DNA from: a virus
Taxonomy: Duplodnaviria; Heunggongvirae; Uroviricota; Caudoviricetes
Direction: 5' to 3' (one strand)
Length of the DNA: 64,000 nt
Virus record (IMG/VR): IMGVR_UViG_3300009131_000001
Span: 17,814-81,813 of that record
Shown: positions 2,361-58,413 of the stretch, piece by piece
Numbering within the stretch: position 1 is the stretch's first letter
Layout: each line of letters starts with the position of its first letter
Position numbers and translations under genes: made by a program
The notes under the pieces: generated by a model
The model's input: only the letters and a program-made list of their open reading frames with translations
Database searches by the model: none
What the model was told of the DNA's origin: nothing

Positions 2361-3252
2361 AACCACAACTAGAATACCCTCGTACACTACCAGTATTCCC
2401 GCAACTAGAATAATTTGGAACTGTAGGAGATGAATATAAAACATCCATTGGATTGTAAAATTCTACAGGTTTTCCAAAATTCCAATCTTCATATAATATA
2501 CCATCTGGTTGATATATTAATTCATATATAAAGTTTACATGATTAGATGGTTCATTAAGAGAGTACTTGAAATTTACAGGCATTCCCTTAATAAGTTTAC
2601 TATCTAACTTACATACTGGGCAACTATCTTTTCTAATGGACTTTACATTTGAAAATAAGTCATGTAATTTAAAATTATCCAAATTATCTGAATTATAGTT
2701 TTTTCTAAATGTCACAGAAGAAGCCCCAACTTTAAAAGCAAAATCTACATAATCATATAAATATTGTTTATCTCCAAAATTCTCTTCTACTACACAATTT
2801 ATATTAACTGGAATTCCTACATCATTTAATTTCTTACAAATAGTAGTAAGTTTTTTAGTACTTGGAACATCTTTAGTATTAAATATTTTATAGTTTTCTA
2901 TATCATCTATAGAATGTCTAGAAATATTAATATAACGAACCTTATTTTTCAGTATATCTATAACATTTGAAATATTACCCCCATTACTAGTAAGCACTAC
3001 TTTTGGGAAATTATATCTTGAAATAGTTTCTAAAGTAGGTGTAAGAAACTCACTATATGTAGGTTCTCCTCCTGATATTGAACATTGTGTAAATATATCA
3101 GGTAATATACTAAGATAATGGTTAAGTCTAGATAAGTAAGTAACATCTGTATAACTAGGCTTCCAAAAACAAAATCCACAATTAGCATTACATCCTCCAG
3201 GAAGAATTACTGTTAAATTTGGGGATTCTTGTATTGATTTTTTAAGTTTCAT
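2359..3252 (-). CDS. Radical SAM enzyme, viperin/MoaA-like
   Basis: CNANCGFCFW forms a CxxxCxxC motif with an aromatic residue, as in viperin CNYKCGFCFH. SISGGEP is the SAM glycine motif. VVLTSNGG and ISRHSIDDIEN parallel viperin VSIVSNGS and ISCDSFDEEVN. The C-terminus is Cys-rich (CPVC ... SSCG ... SSCG). Confidence 0.7.
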   Translation of the reverse strand: MKLKKSIQESPNLTVILPGGCNANCGFCFWKPSYTDVTYLSRLNHYLSILPDIFTQCSISGGEPTYSEFLTPTLETISRYNFPKVVLTSNGGNISNVIDILKNKVRYINISRHSIDDIENYKIFNTKDVPSTKKLTTICKKLNDVGIPVNINCVVEENFGDKQYLYDYVDFAFKVGASSVTFRKNYNSDNLDNFKLHDLFSNVKSIRKDSCPVCKLDSKLIKGMPVNFKYSLNEPSNHVNFIYELIYQPDGILYEDWNFGKPVEFYNPMDVLYSSPTVPNYSSCGNTGSVRGYSSCG

Positions 3253-4862: not shown

Positions 4863-5471
4863 TTATTCAGTTTTATTTGTTATTAATTCAGACATAGGAA
4901 GAGTTTCTATCCATTTACAGAAATCTTGCCACTCTTGAAGCTTATGATGCTTGCGCTGTGAATAAATAGTTTTAAGTTGAAGATAGTTAGTTGATATACC
5001 CATCCATTTTAAATAACCAGATGGTAAATTCTCAATTATTCTTTTAAAACATATTTCTTTCTCGTCTAAAAATAACGGCGAATTATATGCCCTTATAGAA
5101 CCATTAATCAATTCTATAATACCATCATGTACATTGTTAGTAAAATCATCTTTAGTTAATTCTCTGCTAGTAATTTTATGCATCTTACTCTGAGAACTAA
5201 CAATGTCTACCCAGTGGTATCTTTGTAATTGTGGGCTAAAATATTCAGGATATTGTAGGTCAAATTGAACTATAATTCCTTTAAGGAAATTATTATGTCC
5301 TGAACCACTTGGTGTATTTGCTAGCTTTTTAGCTCTATTAGTATCCCCATTACATATAGATGATATGGCTTCCGACTTATCTAAATCTTTAGGTTCCCCA
5401 ACTTGCATTGGATAACCACTACGAACTAAGCTTTCTGCCAATCCGTAAATTTTTATATTTTTAATTTTCAT
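4863..5471 (-). CDS. Hypothetical protein with a faint ThyX-like resemblance (not supported)
   Basis: 202-aa ORF. GHNNF...IIVQF...QRYHW loosely recalls the ThyX N-terminal region but lacks the RHR motif. Confidence 0.45.
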   Translation of the reverse strand: MKIKNIKIYGLAESLVRSGYPMQVGEPKDLDKSEAISSICNGDTNRAKKLANTPSGSGHNNFLKGIIVQFDLQYPEYFSPQLQRYHWVDIVSSQSKMHKITSRELTKDDFTNNVHDGIIELINGSIRAYNSPLFLDEKEICFKRIIENLPSGYLKWMGISTNYLQLKTIYSQRKHHKLQEWQDFCKWIETLPMSELITNKTE

Positions 5472-6420
5472 GCAATAGTTTAAAAATTACGCCTTTATAT
5501 TTGTTATTGCCTTTATAGGACTTACCAGACTTTAATAGTTTTTCTATTGTTTTTCTATTAATTCCTGTATATTCTGATGTTTTTATTATATTATCAAACT
5601 GTAATATTTGATTATCATATTCAAAGGTAATTGGAACCCATTGTGAAGATTTTGTATTTTTTCTATTAAATTTCTCAATTCTGTATTTATCAAAAGGATC
5701 ATCTGGATATCTCCAAACAAAACCGTATGCAGATAGTACTTTTCCTTTAGAACATCTTACTATAGGTTGATATTTAAATCCAAGGTTCCTCTCTATTTCC
5801 ACAGAACTTGTAAAAGTTTTTATAAAATTTCCATCTATGTCATATTGATTTATTGGTTTAGATATCCTTAAAATATTTTTTTCTGACATTTTCTTTCCAG
5901 TATTGGCAATACTTATCTTAAGTTTTTGCTCTTCAGATAATTTCTTACCTAATCTAGATAAAGACATATTCTTTCGCCATTCAGGTGTTCTTGGTATATT
6001 ACGTAATGATTTTGAAAGTTTATCTATAGTCTCTTTTCTTCTTTTTACTCCTAAACATGATTTTTCTACTATTTTACAAATATTCATATCTGGATTAATG
6101 ATGTCTATATAATGCTGCTCAAATTTCATACATTCTTCTGCATCACAATAATGAATAACATATGCTTTAATATTATAGCATTTATTATAAATATTTTGCA
6201 TGAACACATTATAATGCTTATTTCTATGTAATAACCATTTATGTTGATTTATTCTTTCAGATAATCCTAATTTATTTGCTGTGCTACCAATATACAAATG
6301 ACTACCAATTTTTATTAAATATATACCAGTACTTCTATTTATTTTTTTAACTATTACTTTCCCATTACATTCCTCAATAATTTTCTCTAGTTCTTCTATA
6401 TTTTTTATATTGTTATTCAT
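5461..6420 (-). CDS. GIY-YIG homing endonuclease with NUMOD3/IENR1-like DNA-binding repeats
   Basis: GIYLIKIGSHLYIGST is a GIY-YIG core. NUMOD3-like EEQKLKISIANTGKK and a C-terminal IENR1-like YTGINRKTIEKLLKSGKSYKG are present. Confidence 0.75.
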   Translation of the reverse strand: MNNNIKNIEELEKIIEECNGKVIVKKINRSTGIYLIKIGSHLYIGSTANKLGLSERINQHKWLLHRNKHYNVFMQNIYNKCYNIKAYVIHYCDAEECMKFEQHYIDIINPDMNICKIVEKSCLGVKRRKETIDKLSKSLRNIPRTPEWRKNMSLSRLGKKLSEEQKLKISIANTGKKMSEKNILRISKPINQYDIDGNFIKTFTSSVEIERNLGFKYQPIVRCSKGKVLSAYGFVWRYPDDPFDKYRIEKFNRKNTKSSQWVPITFEYDNQILQFDNIIKTSEYTGINRKTIEKLLKSGKSYKGNNKYKGVIFKLLHEN

Positions 6421-40720: not shown

Positions 40721-41200
40721 ATGCAGTTAGAGAAAATTGTAGAAACTGAACATGGGTTTGTAGACCCTGAAACTGGAGAAGTTATTTCTTCATCCTTTAC
40801 TAATACAAAGCATATCATAAAGAAGAAGACTACTTTTGATAATTTTGTGCAGGTATATATTAGAGATTTGGCAGATATTTATAGGATTACTAGTAGAACT
40901 CAGATTGCTCTTCTAATGGTACTATGTGAAGAATCTAAAATGATTTTAAGTAATTCAGATATTCTTCCGACATTTACTGCTCTTATTGATGATAAGCAAA
41001 GATGGGCAGAGAAGTTACAAATAAATGCAGGAAAGAATGTGGATAATGCCCTAGCTGAATTGGTTAAAAAAAATATTGTACTTAGAATAAGTAGAGGCAA
41101 ATATTCTTTAAACCCTAAGTATATATTCTCAGGAGCATTAAAGGATAGACCTAAAATGCTTGAACTATGTGTGAAATATGAAATATCAGAATCTGTATAA
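40721..41200 (+). CDS. putative winged-helix DNA-binding regulator (paralog of 12371..12886); first gene of the rightward block
   Basis: DPETGEVISSSFTN...; ALAELVKKNIVLRISRGKYSLNPKYIFSG wHTH-like segment. Confidence 0.5.
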   Translation: MQLEKIVETEHGFVDPETGEVISSSFTNTKHIIKKKTTFDNFVQVYIRDLADIYRITSRTQIALLMVLCEESKMILSNSDILPTFTALIDDKQRWAEKLQINAGKNVDNALAELVKKNIVLRISRGKYSLNPKYIFSGALKDRPKMLELCVKYEISESV

Positions 41201-41280
41201 ACATTATTTAACACATCTATAGGATAAGAGTTAGAAATTAATCTTTATATTTATCACCAATTAAATTTAACTAGTAGAAT

Positions 41281-41811
41281 ATGACTAAGGAGGAATTAAT
41301 AAAAAGTATAGAAAGAAACCTTACAAGTCTTAAAATTATTTGTAAGGATTCAGAAGATAATGAATGGGGAGAGATAATAAAAAGCTCTTATAGTAATGAC
41401 AGAACTTTTTTCTATCGAGGATGTTTAAATACTCCTACAGAGCAACTACTTATCTATAAGGCTATATTATCTACAATACCTGTAGAGTATAGAGATAATG
41501 CTACAATACAATTTAGCATGGAAGGTTCGTTAGTTCAGAAATTGAGTATTAGCGTATATGGTGAGTATAATTGTACTGTTAGTATGTATATGATAAAAAC
41601 AGCTCCTGGGCGGATTAAGTTAAGAAGTGCTTGGGATAATACAGAGATTGAATACGGGTTTGTACACTGTTTTGATAATGCTAAAAGTCTTACGGAAATA
41701 CCTGTTATAGAAAATAATTACACTCAGCCAATAGTTGATGGCTTTGAAATGCCTGAACTTCCTGATGAAGTTATTGAAAATATATTTAAAGAATTTGATA
41801 GTAAAGAATAA
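41281..41811 (+). CDS. hypothetical protein
   Basis: 176-aa ORF. Confidence 0.5.
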   Translation: MTKEELIKSIERNLTSLKIICKDSEDNEWGEIIKSSYSNDRTFFYRGCLNTPTEQLLIYKAILSTIPVEYRDNATIQFSMEGSLVQKLSISVYGEYNCTVSMYMIKTAPGRIKLRSAWDNTEIEYGFVHCFDNAKSLTEIPVIENNYTQPIVDGFEMPELPDEVIENIFKEFDSKE

Positions 41812-43606: not shown

Positions 43607-43897
43607 ATGAATTTTGGACAAGCAATTGAAGCCTTAAAAGAAGGTAAATTAGTAGCAAGAGAAGGTTGGAATGGTAAGGGGTTATTTGTAATGAAACAAA
43701 TTCCTGCCGAAATTGGATTAGAGATTATCCCTAAAATGCAGTCTGTACAAGAAAGTGCTAAACAAATTTTAGTATCTAGAGGTACAACTCTAAAATATGA
43801 GAATCAAATGCTTATTATAAAACCAAATGGTACGGCAGATTCATGGGTTCCAAGCTCTTCTGATGTATTTGCAGAAGATTGGATTGTTGTAGAATAA
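43607..43897 (+). CDS. DUF2829-family protein (Tad2-like candidate anti-Thoeris sponge)
   Basis: N-terminus MNFGQAIEALKEGKLVAREGWNGKGLFVM matches the DUF2829 signature (M.FG.A.EALK.GKKV.R.GWNGKG) recalled from memory. The protein is ~96 aa, the typical family size. Confidence 0.5.
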   Translation: MNFGQAIEALKEGKLVAREGWNGKGLFVMKQIPAEIGLEIIPKMQSVQESAKQILVSRGTTLKYENQMLIIKPNGTADSWVPSSSDVFAEDWIVVE

Positions 43898-43919
43898 TAA
43901 TTAAATTAACTTAATTTAA

Positions 43920-43956
43920 ATCCTCACTAATAAAAATAGTGGGGATTTTATTTTTT
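43920..43956 (+). terminator. rho-independent terminator
   Basis: atcctcacta/tagtggggat 10-bp stem (one G-U) with a 7-nt loop, followed by TTTTATTTTTT. Confidence 0.6.
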
Positions 43957-44004: not shown

Positions 44005-45000
44005 ATGGGTAGAGTAAGAAAAATAGGAGTCTATAAAATTACTTGTAATATTACTGGAATGTCTTATATAGGACAGAGTAATGATGTTTATAGAAGATTG
44101 AGATTTTATAAATCTCTGAGATGTAGGCAACAACCAAGAATTTACAGATCTCTATCTAAGTATGGCATAGATAATCACATATTTACAATCATTTGGGAAT
44201 CTACCTATAGTAGTAAACACATAATATTACAAAAGGACACTCTTAATATTTTGGAAAAATTTTACATATTTAAATATAATACCCTATCTCCCAATGGGTT
44301 AAATTTGTATTCTGGAGGAGATTCTTATACAGCATCTGAAGAAACTAGACTTAAATTAAGTAAATCTAAAAGTGGTATAAATCATCCAATGTATGGAAAG
44401 ATTGGAAAATTAAATCCAGCATCAAAGGAGGTTGTGCAATTAAGTAAAGATGGAGAGTTTATAAAAGATTGGGAATCTGCAACTGTTGCAGAAAAGACTT
44501 TAAATATAGCTAGAGATTTAGTATCAGCATGTTGTAGAGAAGATAGATATAGTACTAATGGGTATATATGGATGTGGAAAGCAGATTTTGATACTTACGG
44601 GCCAAAAATATACAAATTACCAAAAAGAAAAGATAGTCTATCAAAGAAGACTTATCAATATGATTTACAAGGTAAATATTTAAGAGAGTGGAATTCTACT
44701 ATGGATATAGAAAGAGAACTTAATATTGCAAATACATCTATAAGTAATGTATGCACAAATCAAAAAGGACAGGCTGGAGGATTTCAATGGAGATACTTTA
44801 TAAATGAAAATGGTATAAATGAATATATTACTAAGGGATTTCATGTAGTAGTTACAGATATAGATACAGGACTAATTCAAGAGTTTGAAAGTCTAGCTAA
44901 AATAAGTAAGACCTTTAAAATAAAGTGGTATATAATTAAAGAATGTTGCGAAGGTATTAGGAAATATTATAAAAATTATAAATTTAGTTATAAATATTAA
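44005..45000 (+). CDS. GIY-YIG homing endonuclease with NUMOD-type DNA-binding repeats
   Basis: GVYKITCNITGMSYIGQS is a GIY-YIG core. NUMOD3-like TRLKLSKSKSGINHPMYGK. Repeated IENR1/NUMOD1-like segments (KEVVQLSKDGEFIKDWESATVAEKTLNIA; LREWNSTMDIERELNIANTSISNVC). Confidence 0.7.
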   Translation: MGRVRKIGVYKITCNITGMSYIGQSNDVYRRLRFYKSLRCRQQPRIYRSLSKYGIDNHIFTIIWESTYSSKHIILQKDTLNILEKFYIFKYNTLSPNGLNLYSGGDSYTASEETRLKLSKSKSGINHPMYGKIGKLNPASKEVVQLSKDGEFIKDWESATVAEKTLNIARDLVSACCREDRYSTNGYIWMWKADFDTYGPKIYKLPKRKDSLSKKTYQYDLQGKYLREWNSTMDIERELNIANTSISNVCTNQKGQAGGFQWRYFINENGINEYITKGFHVVVTDIDTGLIQEFESLAKISKTFKIKWYIIKECCEGIRKYYKNYKFSYKY

Positions 45001-45015
45001 ATGTAGATTTTAGTT

Positions 45016-45534
45016 ATGAATAATAGGATACCAAAAGATTTTTTTATTACTAAAGGCTCTGGATTATCTGATATAACCATGCATGCTGGAGCATTTCATT
45101 TTGCATTATGGGATGCTGGAATTGATGGTTATAATTTTGTAAAATATTCATCAGTTTTACATAAAAAAGCAGAATGTGTAAATATTGAAAGTATTAAAAG
45201 TATGCCAGAACACGGTAGTGAGATGATGTGTATTCAAGCTATTGCCGAAGGAAAGGGTGGAGAAACTATTTCAGCAGGTATTATTTATGGATATCTTTAT
45301 GATCTAGAGGGCAATTGTTATGGAGGGATAGTTTGTGAAGAGTCTAATACGTATGGTGAGTCACAATTAACTTACAAATTAATAAATATAATAGATGATA
45401 TGTATTGTAAAACTTATAAAACTAAAGGATTGATACTAAGAGATGTAAAAACAATTACTGAAGAATTGTCAATTCCTAATGATGTTAGATTTGGATGTTG
45501 TTTAGTTAGTCTGTGTTTTATAAATTATTTGTAG
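45016..45534 (+). CDS. pdaD: pyruvoyl-dependent arginine decarboxylase (PdaD family)
   Basis: MNNRIPKDFFITKGSG...FHFALWDAGIDGYNFVKYSSVL parallels the PdaD N-terminus (...PK.FF.T.G.G...FE.AL..AGI...NLV.VSSI.P) including the Ser-Ser self-cleavage site. GGETISAGIIYGY matches GETISAAISVA. Confidence 0.65.
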   Translation: MNNRIPKDFFITKGSGLSDITMHAGAFHFALWDAGIDGYNFVKYSSVLHKKAECVNIESIKSMPEHGSEMMCIQAIAEGKGGETISAGIIYGYLYDLEGNCYGGIVCEESNTYGESQLTYKLINIIDDMYCKTYKTKGLILRDVKTITEELSIPNDVRFGCCLVSLCFINYL

Positions 45535-45535
45535 T

Positions 45536-45901
45536 ATGGAAATAAAAACTAATGTTAAAGGAGTAGATAAGTATATTACTATAGTCGGAATGCTTAGTAG
45601 CAAGTTACTTGGCAATGAACCATTTTGCGATTTACAACCTAAATGTCAGCTAGTATATGCATACTTACTATACTATAGAAATGATGTGTATGGGCATTTA
45701 GAGGAAAATTTGGCTAATAAGTTAACCTTTGATGGTGATACTAGAAGACTTATTGCAGAGGCACTTAAGGTAGAGAGAGTAGGTGTTTCTAACTATACTA
45801 AGATTCTTAAGGAAAGAGGTATTCTTAATGAGGATAAGAAATCTTTCAATAAGAAGTATCACATACCCAATCTTAAAGAATTTATTATTAGATTTGAGTA
45901 A
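45536..45901 (+). CDS. hypothetical protein (possible HTH)
   Basis: TRRLIAEALKVERVGVSNYTKILKERGIL is helix-turn-helix-like. Confidence 0.45.
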   Translation: MEIKTNVKGVDKYITIVGMLSSKLLGNEPFCDLQPKCQLVYAYLLYYRNDVYGHLEENLANKLTFDGDTRRLIAEALKVERVGVSNYTKILKERGILNEDKKSFNKKYHIPNLKEFIIRFE

Positions 45902-46095
45902 TGTTTATTATAAGATTTCATTTTAGAAATGTAGACGAATCTATAGATTTTATAGAACAATCCAAATCTATGTTAGAAGGATTTGACTATAAGATTAATA
46001 TAGAGGATAACGGTAAAATAGTTAAAGTTGAAATATTAAAACTAAAAGATAAAGTAATATGGGAAGTAAAAGGAAAGTGTTTTTATATGAACTAG
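45901..46095 (+). CDS. hypothetical protein
   Basis: 64-aa ORF with ATGA-type overlap. Confidence 0.35.
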   Translation: MFIIRFHFRNVDESIDFIEQSKSMLEGFDYKINIEDNGKIVKVEILKLKDKVIWEVKGKCFYMN

Positions 46096-47312
46096 CAACT
46101 GGTAAGACTATAGAATTTAATAGTCAGACTTCTGCTGGAGAGTTTTTACATGTTAGTGAAGCAACAATACGTAAGTATAATAATACTCTTAAAGAGATTG
46201 ATGGGTATAGAATATATAGTGGAGATAAAGTAGCACTTGCTGGAGAATCCTTATTAAATAGTATTAATGACCATAAAGAAACAAATGAAAACATTAATAC
46301 TAATGAGTTGGATTCAAGGATAAGTGAATTAGGTTATTCTAAATCTGATATACAGTCTGTTAAAACTTGGCAAACCCAGAAAGGTGAGACTAGATTTAGT
46401 ATTGTAACTAAACCAGATCAAGTTAATTCTGAAGAATTCCTGGAGAATCTTAAGAATAAGTTATCTGAATCCGTCAAACCATTTGAGATTCAACTTACAC
46501 CTGCTAAAGTTAGTGGGGTAGATTTAATAGTTTATACTTCAGATAAGCATGTTGGGGCTTGTAGTAAAGATTCTCAATATAATAATGAGTATAATGAGAT
46601 GGAATTTACTCGTAGAATGCAACAAATCTATCAAGAAATTGCATATGTAAAATTTGAATTTGGGCATATTAATAGTCTAATATTTATTGATTTAGGGGAT
46701 AATCTTGATGGGTATAATGCTCAAACTACTAGAGGTAATCATCCACTACCCCAGAATATGACTGATGAGGAATCATTTGATACTTATGTAAATGTACATA
46801 AGATATTCTTTGATAGTTTGGTAGAAAATAGTATGGCTAGTGAGTATAAGGCATACTTTGTAAATGATAGTAATCACTCTGGAAGTTTCGGATATACTGC
46901 AAATAGGGCATTGGAGATTTATCTTAATGTTAAGTTTCCATTCATAGAAACTATTCAGATGAATAAGTTTATGGAACATTTTATTCTAGGAGATGATTGC
47001 TATATTCTATGTCATGGTAAAGACAAGATTGATAGAAAGAATGGATTACCATTACATCTTAACGATGGTACTTATAAGTTAATATCTGACTACATTGACT
47101 ATAATAAGTTACATAATTATAACGTACATTTTGTAAAGGGGGATTTACACCAGAGTGCTTTTGAAAAGAATAGTAAGTTTACTTATAGGAATATACCTAG
47201 TGTATATGGTGCTAGTAAGTGGATTATGAATAACTTTGGATTGAATAAGCCTGGATTCTCAATGGATGTTTATCATATGGGGAATATTTATAGAAGAGAT
47301 ATTGAACTTTAA
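46059..47312 (+). CDS. calcineurin-like metallophosphoesterase with an N-terminal NUMOD1/IENR1-like DNA-binding module
   Basis: MPP motifs in order: DKHVG (D.H), GDNLDG (GDxxD), NDSNHSG (GNH-like), CHGKD (GH), GDLHQS. The N-terminal YELATGKTIEFNSQTSAGEFLHVSEATIRKY resembles homing-endonuclease DNA-binding repeats. Confidence 0.65.
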   Translation: MGSKRKVFLYELATGKTIEFNSQTSAGEFLHVSEATIRKYNNTLKEIDGYRIYSGDKVALAGESLLNSINDHKETNENINTNELDSRISELGYSKSDIQSVKTWQTQKGETRFSIVTKPDQVNSEEFLENLKNKLSESVKPFEIQLTPAKVSGVDLIVYTSDKHVGACSKDSQYNNEYNEMEFTRRMQQIYQEIAYVKFEFGHINSLIFIDLGDNLDGYNAQTTRGNHPLPQNMTDEESFDTYVNVHKIFFDSLVENSMASEYKAYFVNDSNHSGSFGYTANRALEIYLNVKFPFIETIQMNKFMEHFILGDDCYILCHGKDKIDRKNGLPLHLNDGTYKLISDYIDYNKLHNYNVHFVKGDLHQSAFEKNSKFTYRNIPSVYGASKWIMNNFGLNKPGFSMDVYHMGNIYRRDIEL

Positions 47313-49122: not shown

Positions 49123-52100
49123 ATGGATTATACCAAACTAAATAAGTATCAAACATTAATAACTCCAGAACTAGAAAAGTCTTTACCTAAAGAAGTTTAT
49201 GCAGAACTTATCAATACTATTGATACTATTCCTTTTGTTAATTGGTTAGTACAACCTGAAGAAGTTAGGGGATTTGCTAAAGATAGGGTTAGGCATAAAG
49301 ATTTAGATGATTCTGATGAAAGAAAGCAATATGATGATAATAGGATAGTTGTAGATGTAACTAAACCTCATATACTTGAGGATATGGATTTCTTTAGGGA
49401 AAGGGCTATATTCTTTGATAAGTATGGATGTTATACAGATTTAACTCCTAATCCTAATCCTAATAGTGATTACGCTTTATTTTGGAAGGAAGAAATTAGA
49501 AGGTGGAAGGATGGATTAATTAAACCTAGTGATGGAGAATGGATTCCAGGAGGATTGTACTTTTATTGGAATTATTGTCCAATATGGCAAACCCAAACTG
49601 ACAGTATAACTATAAAAGGTAGAACTAAATCTAGGGCTAAACGTGTTAAAAAATTCCCTAAACCTTGGTTAGGAGATTATTTATTTTATCATTATATAGA
49701 ACAGGCTCAAGAATATGCACTACATGGTAAACTTCTAAAATGTCGTGGCGTTGGATTTAGCTTTAAAATGGGGAGTTTATCTCCTAGAAATATGTATGTG
49801 TATCAAGGTGAAGGAAATCCTAATTTCCATTTGGCTAGTGATAAAGGATTTTTACAGGGTGATAAGGGAGTATATAGTAAAGTAATCACTGTATTAGACT
49901 GGATTGCAGATACTACCCCACTCCCAAAATTAAGACTTGTGAATAGTGCTAGAAGTATGGAAATTAAACTGGGCTATCAAGATGAATATGGGGTAAATAG
50001 AGGCCCTCAGTCTAGTGTATTTGGTATATCTCTTAAGGATAATCCGGATAAGGCTCGGGGTATTCGCGGGCCTTTAGTCCATTATGAGGAAGATGGGCTA
50101 TTTCCTAATCTAGAAGATGCATGGAATATTAATCTTAAATCTGTAGAGGATGGTGACGAATCATTTGGTTTTCAATTAGCTGGCGGGTGTTTAACTGAAA
50201 ATAATTATGTATGGACTCATAATGGAAGTCTAAAAAGAATTAAAGATCTTAAAGTATCTGATGGTATAATAGGATTTAATAATGATAATCAAACTTTTAC
50301 TAAAGAACCTATTACTTATTTACAACCTACTATTAATAAACCTTGTTTGAGAATAGAAACTAATACTGGAAGATTTATTGAATGCAGTACAGATCATCCT
50401 ATACTGTACAGTCATTCTTTACTCTTTAAAAGAGAAGAACTACCTTCAGTAAATGGTAAAAGAAAAAGAAAGACATTTAAAGTAGTATCATTTAATCCTG
50501 CAAATAATTTAGTAATAGGAGACCAAGTAGCAACATTAGATCAGTTTCCCATATTTTCAGACATAGATATGTGGAATCCCAGACTAGTTGGATGGTTAGT
50601 AGGTGATGGTAGTTATGGTATAGATAAGACTCCAGTATTATCTAATTGTGAAGATGAGATAAATAGTTGGTTACATAATAATTTTAAAGATGATGTAACT
50701 ACAGAAAAATCATATATAACTAAGGATGGTAAAACTTATGAAGAAAATAGAATAAAAGGTATCACTAAAGAATTACGTAAGTTAGGGATATATGGACAAA
50801 CCAAATCAAATAAAAGACTTCCAATAGACATACATAATTACTCATTGAACACAGTCACGGAGTTTATAGGGGGATTTTATGATACTGATGGATATATTTC
50901 AAATACAGGTAGAGTTTCTTTATCCTCAGGACATAAAGAAATCTTGTTAGAAATGCAATTGTTATTACAAAAATTAGGTATTCATGGAAATATTATGTAT
51001 GTTAAACCAAATTTTAAAAACCCAAAAAGTAAAAATGGACATTATAATCTAGAAGTAGCAGATAGAGATAGTTTATTAAATTTTCAAAAGCACATAAAAC
51101 TATCTCCTAAAGTAAAAGCAGAAAGACTTGCTAATATTCATAATTTATATAAAAGTAAATCTCAACGTGCAAAACATCTTTCTGGAGTAAGATTTGAAAG
51201 AGTAGTTAAGATTGAGAATATAGGTATTCAACCTGTTTATAATTTAACTGCTGGAGAAACACATACTTATGTAGGAAATGGAATTATTACTCACAATACA
51301 GGAGGTACAGAAGGGGCTAGTTTTGAGGGTTCTGAGAAACTATTTTATCATCCAGATGCCTATAATATATACGGAATAAGTAACGTATATGATAGAAATG
51401 TAAATTCTGATTTAAAGTGTGGTTTCTTCTGGGGAGCATACTTAAATAGAAATAAGTGCTATGATTTAGATACAGGAGAACCTGATGTAATAAAGGCATT
51501 GTGTCAAATTTTACAAAATAGGTATAAAGTAAAAAATAATTCTACAGACCCCAAAGCAATTACTCAAAAAAAGGCCGAAGAACCTATTACTCCACAAGAG
51601 GCTATCATGCGTAGGGAGGGGAATATATTTCCTGCTGAAGATATTAAGAACTATCTTGCTGAAATAATGCCTAACTTCCAAAACTTTGTTAGTAGTCACT
51701 ATGTAGGCAAACTAGTTATTAATACTTCTGGAGATGTAGAGTGGAAACTAAATGAAGGTAACTTATACCCTATTAGGGATTTTCCATTTTTAGATGGTAA
51801 TAAAGAAGGTGCTGTAGAAATATATGAAATGCCTAAAAGATTTGGTAATGGGGAAATTCCTGTTGGTAGGTATATTTGTGGTATAGACCCCTATGACGAT
51901 GAAACTGGTACTTCATTAGGCAGTATATTTGTATTTGATAGGTGGAGTAGATGTATAGTTGCAGAGTATACTGGTAGACCTAGATTTGCAGATGAATTCT
52001 ATGAGATTTGCTATAGATTAGCCAAGTATTACAATGCAATGATAATGTATGAGAATAATAAGAAAGGATTATTTGTATATTTTAGAAATAAGAATATACT

Positions 52101-52512
52101 TCATATGCTGGCAGATGTTCCTAAAATACTTACTGATAAGCAGTCTTTAAAACCTGATACATTATATGGGAATAAATCCAAAGGGTTCAATGCCACTGCT
52201 GAAGTAAATACATTCTTAAGAACTGCTCAAGTTAAATGGATGTGTGAACCTTTAATGGATGATGAAGGAAACCCTAATGGATTGACTAGACTACATAAGA
52301 TTAGAAGTGTTGCATATCTTAAGGAGTGTGCTAGTTGGAATAGTGATGGTAACTTTGATAGGGTTAGTGCTATGGGAGCAGTAATGCTGTATGATTTAGA
52401 ATTAGGTAATGTAGAGATTAAAAGAACTACTGAACAAATTAAAACTAGAGCACATGATAAATATTTTGATAAGTTCTATGGAAACAAATCTAAAATGTTA
52501 AATACATGGTAA
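49123..52512 (+). CDS. terminase large subunit interrupted by an intein
   Basis: The C-terminal RNase H-like nuclease domain (YICGIDPYDDETGTSLGSIFVFDR...IVAEYTGR...EFYEICYRLAKYYNAMIMYENNKKG) is typical of TerL. A 370-aa intein is inserted after ...FQLAGG. Confidence 0.65.
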   Translation: MDYTKLNKYQTLITPELEKSLPKEVYAELINTIDTIPFVNWLVQPEEVRGFAKDRVRHKDLDDSDERKQYDDNRIVVDVTKPHILEDMDFFRERAIFFDKYGCYTDLTPNPNPNSDYALFWKEEIRRWKDGLIKPSDGEWIPGGLYFYWNYCPIWQTQTDSITIKGRTKSRAKRVKKFPKPWLGDYLFYHYIEQAQEYALHGKLLKCRGVGFSFKMGSLSPRNMYVYQGEGNPNFHLASDKGFLQGDKGVYSKVITVLDWIADTTPLPKLRLVNSARSMEIKLGYQDEYGVNRGPQSSVFGISLKDNPDKARGIRGPLVHYEEDGLFPNLEDAWNINLKSVEDGDESFGFQLAGGCLTENNYVWTHNGSLKRIKDLKVSDGIIGFNNDNQTFTKEPITYLQPTINKPCLRIETNTGRFIECSTDHPILYSHSLLFKREELPSVNGKRKRKTFKVVSFNPANNLVIGDQVATLDQFPIFSDIDMWNPRLVGWLVGDGSYGIDKTPVLSNCEDEINSWLHNNFKDDVTTEKSYITKDGKTYEENRIKGITKELRKLGIYGQTKSNKRLPIDIHNYSLNTVTEFIGGFYDTDGYISNTGRVSLSSGHKEILLEMQLLLQKLGIHGNIMYVKPNFKNPKSKNGHYNLEVADRDSLLNFQKHIKLSPKVKAERLANIHNLYKSKSQRAKHLSGVRFERVVKIENIGIQPVYNLTAGETHTYVGNGIITHNTGGTEGASFEGSEKLFYHPDAYNIYGISNVYDRNVNSDLKCGFFWGAYLNRNKCYDLDTGEPDVIKALCQILQNRYKVKNNSTDPKAITQKKAEEPITPQEAIMRREGNIFPAEDIKNYLAEIMPNFQNFVSSHYVGKLVINTSGDVEWKLNEGNLYPIRDFPFLDGNKEGAVEIYEMPKRFGNGEIPVGRYICGIDPYDDETGTSLGSIFVFDRWSRCIVAEYTGRPRFADEFYEICYRLAKYYNAMIMYENNKKGLFVYFRNKNILHMLADVPKILTDKQSLKPDTLYGNKSKGFNATAEVNTFLRTAQVKWMCEPLMDDEGNPNGLTRLHKIRSVAYLKECASWNSDGNFDRVSAMGAVMLYDLELGNVEIKRTTEQIKTRAHDKYFDKFYGNKSKMLNTW
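50188..51297 (+). mobile_element. Intein with a LAGLIDADG homing endonuclease domain inside the terminase large subunit
   Basis: It starts with Cys (CLTENNY) at 50188 and ends ...GIITHN at 51297, followed by Thr (+1). Two LAGLIDADG motifs are present: LVGWLVGDGSYGID and FIGGFYDTDGYIS. The length of 1110 nt is in frame. Confidence 0.75.
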
Positions 52513-55108: not shown

Positions 55109-55606
55109 ATGAAAAGAATATCAGAAGAATTAGAGAAGAGAATTAACATCCATATAGAACTTGAGGAAAACTCCTCAAGGCTCTATAGGGCTATGGGAGA
55201 ATGGTTTGAGTACAATGGTTGGTTTAATGCTGCAAAACTTTGGAAGAAGTATGCAGATGAAGAAATGGCACATTGCAGTAAGTTTTATCAGTATCTACAG
55301 GATAGGGATGTTTTACCTGTAACTCCAATGGTTAAAGAACAACCTAATGAGTATGAGTCTATGGAGAAGATTATAGAGGCATCTTATAAGCATGAAATTG
55401 AGGTAAGTAAGGAATTATCCAAAACTGCAACAATGGCTTTAAAGGAAGGTGATTTAACAGTATTTGGATTTATGCATTGGTTTATTCAAGAGCAAATTGA
55501 AGAAGAATCTAAGATGATGGCATTCTTGGATAGAATTGATATGCTTAAACAGACTAATACTAGTCTATTCTTTATGGAAGAGGCTTTTGAAGAAGCTTTA
55601 GGATAA
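55109..55606 (+). CDS. ftn: ferritin-like protein (bacterial non-haem ferritin Ftn type)
   Basis: Ferroxidase-centre pattern E..Y...EE.AH...Y; YKHE is identical to the E. coli FtnA segment YKHEQ; DLTVFGFMHWFIQEQIEEE matches DYPTFNFLQWYVSEQHEEE. Confidence 0.75.
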   Translation: MKRISEELEKRINIHIELEENSSRLYRAMGEWFEYNGWFNAAKLWKKYADEEMAHCSKFYQYLQDRDVLPVTPMVKEQPNEYESMEKIIEASYKHEIEVSKELSKTATMALKEGDLTVFGFMHWFIQEQIEEESKMMAFLDRIDMLKQTNTSLFFMEEAFEEALG

Positions 55607-56913: not shown

Positions 56914-58413
56914 ATGGGATTTCAAGTAAGTAAACTGCAAATTACAGAACCTAAATACTGGAGTAACTTTACCAGTATGGATCACCTGGCTGCTATGGGT
57001 AACTATCAGCCTGAATACATTAATCAAACCTTGGAATATCTGTATGATGTAAACTACGGATATAACTTTGGTAGTATGATTAATAAGCTACCTGTTCACT
57101 ATATTGATAATGGTGAAATGAACTATAGATGGGCAATGATTGGTGGAGAGGAAAGACCTATTCCACTAGTAAAAGCCTCTCTTGATGCAACTGGTACTGC
57201 CCTTAATGCAACAGACAAACCAGGTCAATATGGTGCCAGCTTCTACATGTGGTTTGCTGAACCATATTTTACTGCTACAACTACTTTACTTGGTTCTAAA
57301 CCAGAAGCATATGTAATTAGATGTAAATCTGATGCTATTCAGGTAGGTGATTTATATCGTCATGAAGTAGAATTACTTACGTCAAATCCAGCATTCTTTG
57401 TACCTGTTGCAGACCTTATTGCAGACAGCCTATGGAATGAAGGATGGGGGCAAGTAGAACAAGCCCTCTCTAAGAGGGGTAATGGTATCCATCATGGTAC
57501 TCACTTCATGTTTGAGAATACCCTTAATGTAATTCGTAAGAACTATGAAGTTCCTGGTAATGTGCTGCGTAATGGTACTCAAAATAACCCACTTGCATTT
57601 GCATTTAAAGATTTGGAAACTGGTCAAACTAGTAAGAAATGGATTGATAAGCAAGCTTGGGATTTCTATCGCCAGTTTAGAAATGATGCATATAGACTAG
57701 ACCTCTATGGTAAGTCAAATAAGCAACTTGATGGTTCTTATGGTAATAGAGGTGAATCTGGTAATGTAATTAAGTCTGGATTTGGTCTATATGAGCAAAT
57801 GAATAATAGTAATATTCTATACTACAATAAGTTTAGTATTGATGCATTACTTGACTTTGTACTTAGTGTTACTGTAGGTAAGTTCCGTGAAGACCAGCGT
57901 AAACTTGTTGTTACTTGTGGAGAATATGGAGCAGTTCAATTCCATAAGGCACTACTTGCTAAACCAGGTGCATCTAGCTTCTTCAGAAGTGATTATCCTC
58001 TTGAGAAAGCTGCTAATGGCAAGTTAGGTTGGAATGAGGGACAATTCACTACTATTAAGTGGGTTAATGGTATTGAGATTACCTTGGTAATTGATAGCCA
58101 AAAAGACAGCCCTTTCCATACTTTGAAGCATCCTGATGGAGGTAATGTTGCATCTTATATCTATGATATCTTTGACTTTGGGCAAACTAATGGTCAGGCA
58201 AATATCATGCGTGTAATGCAACGTAACTTTGAAGAAACCTTCGGTTATATTCCAGGTATGTTTGACCCATTTACTCCTGGTGGTAAGGCTGGTAATCCTA
58301 AGACTATTACCTCTTCTGTAGATGGTTACTCAGTATATGGTTGGAAGCAACGTGGTATTATGATTAAGAATCCTCTTAAGACAGGTAGGTTTATTCCTGC
58401 AATCTATAGATAG
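56914..58413 (+). CDS. major capsid protein (candidate)
   Basis: 499 aa, immediately after the scaffold, with GC-richer 'highly expressed' codon choice. A strong terminator follows it. Confidence 0.45.
   Translation: MGFQVSKLQITEPKYWSNFTSMDHLAAMGNYQPEYINQTLEYLYDVNYGYNFGSMINKLPVHYIDNGEMNYRWAMIGGEERPIPLVKASLDATGTALNATDKPGQYGASFYMWFAEPYFTATTTLLGSKPEAYVIRCKSDAIQVGDLYRHEVELLTSNPAFFVPVADLIADSLWNEGWGQVEQALSKRGNGIHHGTHFMFENTLNVIRKNYEVPGNVLRNGTQNNPLAFAFKDLETGQTSKKWIDKQAWDFYRQFRNDAYRLDLYGKSNKQLDGSYGNRGESGNVIKSGFGLYEQMNNSNILYYNKFSIDALLDFVLSVTVGKFREDQRKLVVTCGEYGAVQFHKALLAKPGASSFFRSDYPLEKAANGKLGWNEGQFTTIKWVNGIEITLVIDSQKDSPFHTLKHPDGGNVASYIYDIFDFGQTNGQANIMRVMQRNFEETFGYIPGMFDPFTPGGKAGNPKTITSSVDGYSVYGWKQRGIMIKNPLKTGRFIPAIYR

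What the first reader, a model, noticed from the sequence alone, without database searches (positions are those of the whole stretch)
45016..45534. Phage-borne pyruvoyl-dependent arginine decarboxylase (PdaD)
The N-terminal 60 residues and the GGETISAG block match the PdaD family, including the Ser-Ser autoprocessing site (YSS|VL). PdaD-type enzymes are the arginine decarboxylases used by Bacteroidota for polyamine synthesis. This therefore looks like a host-derived auxiliary metabolic gene making agmatine. It might supply polyamines to neutralise packaged DNA or feed a DNA or tRNA modification. It sits in an accessory island between a GIY-YIG endonuclease and a NUMOD1-tagged metallophosphoesterase at the start of the late block.
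Basis: partly seen in the sequence, partly recalled or inferred. Interest (0 to 1): 0.7.

Follow-up and report, generated by a model that had tools for sequence, protein, structure and literature searches.

The report
Phage-borne pyruvoyl arginine decarboxylase gene
A distant crAss-like phage carries an intact copy of the small self-activating arginine decarboxylase that Bacteroidales bacteria use to start polyamine synthesis. It is an ordinary enzyme in an unusual carrier, and most likely boosts the host's agmatine and polyamine supply during infection.

Summary
Window 45016..45534 (+) is a 172-aa ORF that matches Pfam PF01862 (PvlArgDC) end to end at 84.8 bits, against a cutoff of 22.7. Its predicted structure (pLDDT 93.4) superposes on M. 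jannaschii PvlArgDC with TM 0.77-0.87.

The Ser-Ser self-cleavage site (S45-S46), the Asn (N40) and the catalytic Glu (E108) are all conserved. By homology the cut falls between the serines (YS|SVL), not after them.

The protein belongs to a large 'HAGSYH' branch of the family, which is the ordinary chromosomal PdaD of Bacteroidales. In that branch the gene sits 8 nt upstream of agmatinase, is fused to agmatinase or to AdoMetDC, or lies next to a deoxyhypusine-synthase-like gene. Arginine-to-agmatine chemistry is therefore well supported by association.

The carrier is a distant crAss-like phage (capsid about 30% identical to known ones). The gene has phage-like composition, is only 42-45% identical to any bacterial copy, and shows 6 synonymous and 0 nonsynonymous differences between strains.

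No other polyamine enzyme was found in about 74 kb of the phage, and nothing points to DNA or tRNA modification.

The family is missing from 50,697 GenBank phage records and from BFVD, but occurs on at least 20 IMG/VR contigs. Verdict: a new member of a known kind, of moderate-to-low interest.

The parts
45016..45534 (+). pdaD-like gene: 172-aa proenzyme of a pyruvoyl-dependent arginine decarboxylase (PvlArgDC fold). The end coordinate includes the stop codon.
   Evidence: ORF list and sequence. PF01862 84.8 bits, full length. AF2 pLDDT 93.4. Foldseek to 1n2m/2qqd TM 0.77-0.87.
45148..45153 (+). Codons TCA TCA for Ser45-Ser46. This is the predicted serinolysis site: cleavage between them, with Ser46 converted to the pyruvoyl cofactor.
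   Evidence: Aligns with Ser52-Ser53 of M. jannaschii PvlArgDC. S46 is present in 170 of 171 relatives, and position 45 is S or T in 167 of 171.
45133..45135 (+). Codon AAT for Asn40, the equivalent of M. jannaschii Asn47.
   Evidence: Alignment to 1n2m/2qqd, where 2qqd is the N47A mutant. N in 170 of 171 relatives.
45337..45339 (+). Codon GAA for Glu108, the equivalent of M. jannaschii Glu109, the carboxylate that assists cleavage and catalysis.
   Evidence: Profile alignment to 1n2m. E in 165 of 171 relatives and 114 of 114 of the H-type branch. Role of Glu109 as stated in PMC2720952.
45082..45099 (+). Codons for H23-A-G-A-F-H28, the 'HAGSYH' signature of the bacterial branch. H28 replaces M. 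jannaschii Asp35.
   Evidence: Alignments. H23 and H28 are invariant in 114 H-type sequences. The same signature occurs in agmatinase-linked and agmatinase-fused homologues.
44005..45000 (+). Context: homing endonuclease (GIY-YIG-like N-terminus, NUMOD3, NUMOD1) ending 15 nt upstream of pdaD.
   Evidence: Pfam and PHROGs.
43918..43948 (+). Context: the only terminator-like hairpin in 39.5-49.3 kb. It lies between the Tad2-like gene and the endonuclease, so endonuclease and pdaD plus the downstream genes may form one transcription unit (inference).
   Evidence: Consensus scan. A single site is no more than chance expectation (mean 2.0).
45536..45901 (+). Context: 121-aa ORF starting 1 nt after the pdaD stop codon. 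Weak HTH-like matches only.

Best explanation
The ORF encodes a functional pyruvoyl-dependent arginine decarboxylase of the bacterial (Bacteroidales-type) branch of the PvlArgDC family, carried as a stand-alone auxiliary metabolic gene by a distant crAss-like phage.

Mechanism (inferred by homology):
- The 172-aa proenzyme folds into the PvlArgDC alpha-beta-beta-alpha sandwich.
- It cleaves itself between Ser45 and Ser46, helped by Asn40 and Glu108. This gives a roughly 5-kDa beta chain and a roughly 14-kDa alpha chain whose N-terminal Ser46 becomes pyruvate.
- The pyruvoyl group forms a Schiff base with L-arginine and releases CO2 and agmatine.

In Bacteroidales, agmatine is the committed entry point to putrescine/spermidine-type polyamines. 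It is taken onward by agmatinase, or by the agmatine deiminase and carboxyaminopropylagmatine routes. The phage enzyme would therefore raise flux into host polyamine synthesis during infection, using host enzymes for every later step. That would supply polycations for translation and for condensing about 100 kb of DNA.

Shown here: family membership, fold, conserved catalytic residues, phage carrier, purifying selection, and linkage of the same branch to agmatinase, AdoMetDC and a SpeY-like gene.

Inferred: self-processing, arginine specificity of this copy, and the benefit to the phage.
For: Family and fold:
- PF01862 full length at 84.8 bits.
- AF2 model pLDDT 93.4, pTM 0.88.
- The top 12 PDB fold matches are all M. 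jannaschii PvlArgDC chains, TM up to 0.87.

Catalytic residues:
- N40, S45-S46 and E108 align to N47, S52-S53 and E109.
- They are near-invariant in 171 relatives.
- The query keeps every invariant column of the 114-member H-type branch.

Functional linkage of the branch:
- The Bacteroidales/Rikenellaceae chromosomal copy P0016 lies 8 nt upstream of an Arginase-family gene among housekeeping genes.
- An agmatinase ORF sits directly downstream in 12 genome loci.
- Single polypeptides fuse this domain to agmatinase, and the agmatinase part passes the TIGR01230 equivalog cutoff (192, 188 and 210 bits against 174.3).
- One fusion is followed by a deoxyhypusine-synthase-family gene in a bacterial contig. 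This matches the agmatine-dependent SpeY/SpeB/pyruvoyl-ADC clusters described in PMC13625781.
- P0061 is an AdoMetDC+PvlArgDC fusion.

Phage carrier:
- Crass_capsid 1e-101 and a ring protein.
- DNA polymerase A and an SNF2-type helicase.
- The capsid matches 118 Crassvirales-type records at 30% identity or less, and the named hosts are Bacteroidota such as Bacteroides and Flavobacterium.

Selection and age:
- Two other samples hold a strain whose pdaD differs at 6 sites, all synonymous, while the flanks are 93-97% identical.
- Gene GC is 29.5% against 29.8% for the window.

Precedent: phages are known to encode polyamine enzymes, including pyruvoyl ADCs of a different fold (PMC9992855).
Against: - No biochemical data exist for this protein or, as far as I could find, for any H-type member.
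- The NCBIfam equivalog models are far below cutoff (38.5 against 106.95; 32 against 207). The same is true of the agmatinase-linked bacterial copy P0016 (47.6 and 45.6).
- M. jannaschii Asp35 is His28 here. From my recollection of Tolbert et al. 2003, not re-read here, Asp35 contacts the substrate guanidinium. Binding of the substrate side chain must therefore differ from the solved enzyme.
- The phage itself encodes no agmatinase, AdoMetDC or other recognisable polyamine enzyme in the 64-kb window plus 10 kb downstream. None lies next to the gene on 17 other viral contigs. The use made of agmatine is therefore unproven.
- About 25 kb of the roughly 100-kb genome was not seen.
- The nearest cellular clade (type 1, 173 aa) has no polyamine neighbour.
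Confidence: 0.8

Rival explanations
1. Same fold and chemistry but a different substrate. The P0001/P0002 lineage would decarboxylate another basic or other amino acid (ornithine, lysine, histidine), or an amino-acid moiety attached to a larger molecule such as a nucleotide or DNA base. That would feed a modification pathway rather than free polyamine synthesis.
For: Asp35 of the solved archaeal enzyme is His28 here. The query sits on a long branch, with a few departures from otherwise conserved columns: S26A, Y27F, I41F, P49H, G111N. Pyruvoyl decarboxylases of the AdoMetDC fold have repeatedly switched between AdoMet, arginine and ornithine (PMC9992855; PMC13625781 reference list). A radical SAM gene and MazG are present elsewhere in the window.
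Against: His28/His23 is not a phage peculiarity. It is invariant in 114 relatives, including those fused to or operonic with bona fide agmatinase. Each of the query's departures also occurs in other family members, for example F27 in fusion P0032 and A at the P49 position in fusions P0038 and P0044. The window holds no thymidylate-synthase-like hydroxymethylase, DNA-base kinase or transferase.
Confidence: 0.08
2. A true arginine decarboxylase whose benefit to the phage is not polyamine supply. Possibilities are draining arginine, consuming protons to buffer the cytoplasm as chlamydial AaxB does with its antiporter, or making agmatine as an effector that interferes with a host process or defence.
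For: The gene stands alone in phages, without any downstream polyamine enzyme. It sits in a block of accessory genes 1.1 kb downstream of a Tad2-like anti-Thoeris gene. The chlamydial homologue works in acid resistance with an arginine:agmatine antiporter (PMC2720952).
Against: No antiporter gene was found in the window. No defence system is known to me that agmatine or arginine depletion would counter. The simplest reading of the family's cellular contexts is polyamine biosynthesis. Hosts of this kind have enzymes that take agmatine onward (PMC13625781).
Confidence: 0.1
3. An inactive remnant or chance ORF: a decaying passenger gene with no function for the phage.
For: It lies beside a mobile homing endonuclease in a variable region. 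A strain variant has an extra ~150-bp insertion right after the gene.
Against: The ORF is full length with every invariant family residue intact. The structure prediction is confident. Strain differences are 6 synonymous and 0 nonsynonymous. The composition is fully phage-like. The family recurs in many unrelated phage contigs.
Confidence: 0.02

Closest known systems
Pyruvoyl-dependent arginine decarboxylase PdaD/PvlArgDC of Methanocaldococcus jannaschii (MJ0316; PDB 1MT1, 1N13, 1N2M, 2QQC, 2QQD)
   Same: Same Pfam family and same fold (TM 0.77-0.87). Same Ser-Ser serinolysis site, Asn47 and Glu109 equivalents, and similar length.
   Different: Only about 20% identical, and below the TIGR00286 equivalog cutoff. 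The 'LNAFD' segment is 'HAGAFH', so Asp35 is replaced by His28. The carrier is a phage, not an archaeon.
Chromosomal PdaD of Bacteroidales ('HAGSYH' branch): type 2 (about 180-200 aa) in a pdaD-agmatinase operon, type 1 (173 aa) and the human-gut 'MVKKVGNLIP...' type standing alone
   Same: Same branch and signature residues, 40-45% identity. Presumed same reaction, and the host phylum matches that of crAss-like phages.
   Different: The phage copy forms its own deep lineage with P0002, about as far from type 1 and type 2 as these are from each other (42.5%, 40.4% and 42.9%). It has AT-rich phage composition and no agmatinase partner.
Phage pyruvoyl-dependent ADC/ODC derived from AdoMetDC/SpeD (pelagiphage HTVC201P and relatives; Li et al., PNAS 2023, PMC9992855)
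   Same: Phage-encoded, small, self-processing pyruvoyl enzymes making agmatine from arginine as stand-alone auxiliary genes that rely on host downstream enzymes.
   Different: Unrelated fold (PF02675 against PF01862), marine SAR11 phages against a crAss-like phage. That survey's text does not mention PF01862-type enzymes in viruses; it cites the M. jannaschii enzyme only as a comparison.
Chlamydial AaxB
   Same: A bacterial PvlArgDC-family arginine decarboxylase that is self-cleaving. The Glu109-bearing strand is critical (PMC2720952).
   Different: AaxB works with the AaxC antiporter and AaxA porin in acid resistance, uses a Thr-Ser site, and belongs to the NF009064-type branch. No antiporter is present here.

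Membership tests
PvlArgDC / PdaD (Pfam PF01862) | Full-length match to the family HMM above the curated gathering score | tested here: met
   84.8 bits against 22.7, residues 5-169 on profile 1-161 of 161.
PvlArgDC / PdaD (Pfam PF01862) | [quoted passage not shown] | tested here: met
   AF2 pLDDT 93.4. Foldseek E 1.7e-13, TM 0.77/0.83 to 1n2m_A and 0.78/0.87 to 2qqd_H. No other fold scores below E 0.02.
PvlArgDC / PdaD (Pfam PF01862) | Ser-Ser (or Thr-Ser) serinolysis site at the position of Ser52-Ser53 | tested here: met
   S45-S46 align to S52-S53. The second Ser is present in 170 of 171 relatives.
PvlArgDC / PdaD (Pfam PF01862) | Asn47 and Glu109 equivalents needed for processing and catalysis | tested here: met
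   N40 and E108. Role of Glu109 per PMC2720952.
PvlArgDC / PdaD (Pfam PF01862) | Asp35 equivalent (the substrate guanidinium contact in the archaeal structure, from my memory of Tolbert et al. 2003) | tested here: not met
   His28 instead. The same His is invariant in 114 relatives, including agmatinase-linked and agmatinase-fused ones. It defines a branch, not a loss of function.
PvlArgDC / PdaD (Pfam PF01862) | Scores as an equivalog of characterised archaeal or chlamydial enzymes (NCBIfam TIGR00286, NF009064) | tested here: not met
   38.5 against 106.95 and 32 against 207. Bacteroidales P0016 also fails at 47.6 and 45.6.
PvlArgDC / PdaD (Pfam PF01862) | Autocatalytic cleavage into beta and alpha chains, and arginine-to-agmatine activity | not testable with these tools
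   Needs expression, SDS-PAGE or mass spectrometry, and an enzyme assay.
PvlArgDC / PdaD (Pfam PF01862) | Genomic or physical linkage to an agmatine-using enzyme | tested here: inconclusive
   Met for the branch: operons, fusions and a SpeY-like neighbour. Not met in this phage or in 17 other viral loci.
Host-derived phage auxiliary metabolic gene | Located inside a genuine phage genome | tested here: met
   Crass_capsid 1e-101 and a crAss ring protein 12-16 kb downstream. DNA polymerase A, helicase and an intein-bearing 1129-aa ORF lie on the same contig. The contigs are 78-100 kb.
Host-derived phage auxiliary metabolic gene | Homologues are ordinary chromosomal genes of the presumed host lineage | tested here: met
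   36 of 42 genome loci are Bacteroidales/Bacteroidota. Contexts are housekeeping genes, glycoside hydrolases, a phosphate transporter and agmatinase. Known relatives of the capsid infect Bacteroidota.
Host-derived phage auxiliary metabolic gene | The phage copy nests within a host clade (recent capture) | tested here: not met
   NJ with 100 bootstraps puts it with the type-1 group excluding type 2 in 86 replicates, but never inside the genome type-1 crown (0 of 100). Best identity to a genome copy is 44.6%. Other viral copies do nest, at 66-79% identity.
AdoMetDC-derived phage pyruvoyl ADC (SpeDA type) | AdoMet_dc (PF02675) fold | tested here: not met
   Only PF01862 is hit. All significant fold matches are PvlArgDC.

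The most novel reading that the evidence does not exclude
The P0001/P0002 lineage is a third deep branch of the bacterial PvlArgDC family, maintained only in phages. Its role would not be generic polyamine provisioning. It could be a specialised one, such as an altered substrate, supply of an amine for a nucleic-acid or virion modification, or arginine and agmatine manipulation as a takeover or counter-defence move. That would fit its position in an accessory block next to a Tad2-like anti-defence gene.
Probability: 0.12. Interest if true: 0.7.

Novelty: new member of a known kind. Interest (0 to 1): 0.33.

Why it matters
Polyamines are needed for phage replication and DNA packaging. Phage-encoded polyamine enzymes are a recently recognised class of auxiliary genes.

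The pyruvoyl arginine decarboxylases so far described in phages come from the AdoMetDC fold (PMC9992855). This finding shows that the other, unrelated pyruvoyl ADC fold (PF01862) is also carried by phages. Carriers found here include a crAss-like phage, T4-like contigs and a contig of megaphage size, apparently through several independent acquisitions from Bacteroidales-type hosts.

The family is absent from 50,697 GenBank phage records and from the BFVD viral structure set, so it has been overlooked.

It points to arginine-to-agmatine as a control point that phages of gut and anaerobic Bacteroidales target repeatedly. The 172-aa cofactor-free enzyme is easy to test. It does not reveal a new mechanism.

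Tried and rejected
- I first suspected that Asp35-to-His28 meant a changed substrate, perhaps decarboxylation of a DNA-bound amino acid as in thymidine hypermodification. I rejected this as the leading idea after finding the same His in 114 relatives, including agmatinase fusions and pdaD-agmatinase operons, and no hypermodification genes in the window.
- Searches for relatives in GenBank phages found nothing: tblastn with the query and with P0016, and megablast of 35-55 kb. BFVD fold search had no match at E of 0.001 or better. AFDB50 was not available.
- No PHROG matched the protein.
- The first metagenome scan with exact peptides found nothing. The second, with an alignment, found mostly chromosomal gut-bacterial copies at 41% identity and no syntenic crAss-like relative.
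- A look-up of the 724-aa protein at the window start, meant to reach the unseen part of the genome, failed.
- Sigma-70 and Bacteroidetes-type promoter pattern scans were at chance level.
- Literature searches with 'crAss' and 'pdaD' returned only irrelevant papers.
- The first bootstrap run timed out. It was repeated on 64 taxa.
- The 'metallophosphoesterase' label of the 417-aa neighbour could not be confirmed.

Full report
**1. The observation**

Window 45016..45534 (+) is an uninterrupted 172-aa ORF with an ATG start. Its N-terminus (MNNRIPKDFF...) lines up with the N-termini of homologues, so the start is well placed.

Pfam PF01862 (PvlArgDC) matches residues 5-169 over the whole 161-position profile, at 84.8 bits against a cutoff of 22.7. 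A direct phmmer search of PDB sequences finds only M. jannaschii PvlArgDC, and weakly (E = 0.13). That alignment places YSSVL on IRIS(S/A)IM and GGETISAG on PGETISAA. A profile built from 12 homologues raises the match to E = 6e-8 and extends it to residue 165.

An AlphaFold2 model built on those 12 sequences is confident (pLDDT 93.4, pTM 0.88). Its 12 significant Foldseek matches in the PDB are all chains of that same enzyme, with TM 0.77-0.87 for the full-length chains at about 20% identity. Nothing else scores below E = 0.02.

One correction applies. By homology the cleavage is between Ser45 and Ser46 (YS|SVL), and Ser46 becomes the pyruvoyl group.

**2. Catalytic equipment**

Numbering the 1n2m alignment gives these equivalences:

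| Query | M. jannaschii |
|---|---|
| N40 | Asn47 |
| S45-S46 | Ser52-Ser53 |
| E108 | Glu109 |

Glu109 supplies the carboxylate that facilitates cleavage in this family (PMC2720952). PDB entries 2qqd and 2qqc are the N47A and E109Q mutants.

In an alignment of 171 full-length relatives, N40 is present in 170, S46 in 170, position 45 is S or T in 167, and E108 is present in 165.

The one departure from the archaeal enzyme is His28 in place of Asp35, within the signature H23-A-G-x-(Y/F)-H28. As I recall from Tolbert et al. 2003, which I did not re-read here, Asp35 contacts the guanidinium group. I therefore first treated this as a possible sign of a changed substrate.

**3. What the His-type branch is**

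An exhaustive profile search of 1.84 billion cluster representatives found 956 relatives, 80 of them below 1e-30. Among the full-length ones, 121 of 171 carry His and 44 carry Asp at this position.

The His-type branch turned out to be the ordinary bacterial enzyme.

- (a) A scan of one genome per species returned 42 loci. Thirty-six are Bacteroidales/Bacteroidota (Rikenella, Porphyromonas, Bacteroides, Draconibacterium, Williamwhitmania and others), many on contigs of 0.2-6 Mb. Five are DPANN or unclassified archaea and one is a Lachnospiraceae genome.
- (b) The roughly 200-aa 'type 2' copy (P0016) lies among nusB, yajC, coaE and purC-type housekeeping genes, 8 nt upstream of an Arginase-family gene. 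An agmatinase ORF sits directly downstream in 12 of the genome loci.
- (c) Several representatives are single polypeptides with this domain fused to an agmatinase. The agmatinase part passes the TIGR01230 equivalog cutoff, at 192, 188 and 210 bits against 174.3.
- (d) One such fusion (P0053) sits in a bacterial contig (dnaN, recF-like, smpB, pgi) directly upstream of a deoxyhypusine-synthase-family gene. This is the SpeY/SpeB/pyruvoyl-ADC type of agmatine-dependent homospermidine cluster described in PMC13625781.
- (e) P0061 fuses AdoMetDC to the domain.

These linkages tie the His-type branch to agmatine production. His28 is therefore a branch signature, not evidence against arginine decarboxylation.

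The query keeps every invariant column of the 114 His-type sequences. Its few departures (S26A, Y27F, I41F, P49H, G111N) each occur in other members, some of them in agmatinase fusions.

The NCBIfam equivalog models are not reached, at 38.5 against 106.95 and 32 against 207. The agmatinase-linked P0016 does not reach them either. Those models describe the archaeal and chlamydial branches.

**4. The carrier**

The window is part of a 78-100 kb contig of a crAss-like phage.

- A Crass_capsid protein lies at 56914-58410 (E = 1e-101), with a crAss tail ring protein nearby.
- An intein-bearing 1129-aa ORF is followed by an 845-aa ORF.
- DNA polymerase A, an SNF2-type helicase, a PD-(D/E)XK nuclease and an AAA_24 ATPase lie on the opposite strand.
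- The capsid is at most 30% identical to any of 118 matching GenBank records. Where hosts are named they are Bacteroidota: Bacteroides, Flavobacterium, Cellulophaga and Azobacteroides.
- There is no nucleotide-level relative in GenBank phages.

The gene lies in a co-directional run of small genes. A homing endonuclease ends 15 nt upstream, and the next ORF starts 1 nt after the pdaD stop codon. A Tad2-like gene and the only terminator-like hairpin of the region lie just upstream of the endonuclease.

**5. Origin and selection**

In a neighbour-joining tree the query pairs with P0002 (53% identity; 65 of 100 bootstraps). It joins the group containing the 173-aa 'type 1' Bacteroidales genes and several viral copies, to the exclusion of type 2, in 86 of 100 bootstraps. 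It never falls inside the bacterial type-1 crown group.

Its identity to type 1 is 42.5% and to type 2 is 40-45%. That is about the same as the identity between the two bacterial types, 42.9%.

Type 1 is a normal chromosomal gene. Its neighbours are nrfH/nrfA-like genes, GH35, GH3, a PHO4 transporter and PhoU-like genes, at GC 43-50%.

The phage gene has GC 29.5% and GC3 15%, matching the window at 29.8%. This copy is therefore old and fully ameliorated, and the direction of transfer cannot be read from it.

Other viral copies on IMG/VR contigs are 66-79% identical to Bacteroidales chromosomal genes and are scattered over at least six places in the tree. Their neighbours include T4-type capsid and prohead protease genes and peptide deformylase. 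One of these contigs is 675 kb long. The family has evidently moved between these bacteria and their phages several times.

A strain of the same phage from two other samples differs in pdaD at six positions, all synonymous. Its flanks are 93-97% identical. This is consistent with purifying selection, though the sample is small.

**6. What it does for the phage**

No agmatinase, AdoMetDC or other recognisable polyamine enzyme was found in three places:

- the 64-kb window (profile search; Pfam on 87 ORFs);
- the 10 kb beyond its end;
- next to the gene on 17 other viral contigs.

The window also holds no antiporter and no DNA-hypermodification genes.

The most economical reading is a stand-alone first-step enzyme that pushes arginine into the host's agmatine-based polyamine pathway. 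This parallels the AdoMetDC-derived pyruvoyl ADCs of pelagiphages, which also rely on host downstream enzymes (PMC9992855). In Bacteroides, agmatine is thought to be taken onward through carboxyaminopropylagmatine and N1-aminopropylagmatine (PMC13625781).

The benefit to the phage is inferred, not shown. It could be polycations for translation and DNA condensation. Arginine drain, proton consumption and an effector role for agmatine remain possible at lower probability.

**7. Comparison and novelty**

The protein is a member of PF01862 by HMM, fold and catalytic residues. It is not an equivalog of the characterised archaeal or chlamydial enzymes. It belongs to the uncharacterised but clearly polyamine-linked Bacteroidales branch.

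The phage pyruvoyl ADCs in the literature I could search are of the unrelated AdoMetDC fold. The 2023 virosphere survey mentions the M. jannaschii enzyme only for comparison.

No homologue exists in 50,697 GenBank phage records or in BFVD. At least 20 IMG/VR contigs carry one, and JGI's automatic annotation already names such genes 'arginine decarboxylase'.

This is a new member of a known kind: an expected enzyme in a carrier where it had not been described. Interest is moderate to low.

Noticed in passing
window 43607-43897 (+): A 96-aa ORF matches the Tad2-like (anti-Thoeris) domain PF11195 full length (E = 1.4e-21). It is followed at 43918-43948 by the only terminator-like hairpin in 39.5-49.3 kb. 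A homologue (45% identity) lies on viral contig L064, which also carries a pdaD copy.
   Followed up: partly
window 49123-52512 (+): A 1129-aa ORF, probably the large terminase given its position before a portal-sized ORF, is interrupted by an intein with a LAGLIDADG homing endonuclease (PF14528, PF14890, Hint).
   Followed up: no
window 55109-55606 (+): A ferritin-like protein (PF00210, E = 1.4e-24; also a weak Rubrerythrin match) is encoded between the 845-aa portal-sized ORF and the capsid gene of a crAss-like phage.
   Followed up: no
window 2362-3252 (-) ; window 5464-6420 (-): A radical SAM protein (PF04055, 40 bits) and a second NUMOD1-bearing protein lie in the minus-strand block. The window thus holds several homing-endonuclease-type genes. 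MazG, HNH, a RepL-like pair (40721-41808) and a glucosaminidase are also present.
   Followed up: no
window 46059-47312 (+): This 417-aa protein has an N-terminal NUMOD1 domain and matches PHROG 22398 (unknown function, 8e-38). Only loose DxH / GDxxD / GNH-like motifs are visible by eye.
   Followed up: partly
L005:673-826 and L006 (strain variants of window 44176-46145): A related strain has an extra ~150-bp insertion with a 58-aa ORF immediately after pdaD. Within pdaD there are 6 synonymous and 0 nonsynonymous differences, while flanking genes are only 93-97% identical.
   Followed up: yes
P0032, P0038, P0044, P0053, P0057, P0090, P0133 (proteins); L007:5160-7510: These are natural fusions of a PvlArgDC domain with agmatinase (about 445-470 aa). 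In one bacterial contig the fusion is followed directly by a deoxyhypusine-synthase-family (SpeY-like) gene, giving a compact two-gene arginine-to-homospermidine-type module. In P0090 and P0133 the PvlArgDC part looks degenerate (no Ser-Ser).
   Followed up: partly
P0061, P0111 (proteins): Two other domain fusions were seen: AdoMetDC + PvlArgDC (two unrelated pyruvoyl decarboxylases in one chain), and a helicase C-terminal domain + PvlArgDC.
   Followed up: no
L054 (IMG/VR contig of 675,678 bp) = P0007 context L001: A contig of megaphage size, with a T4 gp13-like neck protein and many ORFs of unknown function, also carries a PvlArgDC gene (43% identical to the query). Acb1/2',5' RNA ligase-like and ASCH genes are nearby.
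   Followed up: no
L098-L161 (metagenome loci): A third chromosomal PdaD type (MVKKVGNLIPNTFFITKGSGESDLEKHAGSYH...) is very common on large human-gut metagenome contigs of up to 2.8 Mb. No adjacent agmatinase was found.
   Followed up: partly
P0098, P0099, P0102, P0130, P0131, P0134, P0136, P0155 (proteins): These PvlArgDC homologues have long, low-complexity or transit-peptide-like N-terminal extensions, which suggests eukaryotic (algal or protist) copies of the 'ETGSYD' type.
   Followed up: no
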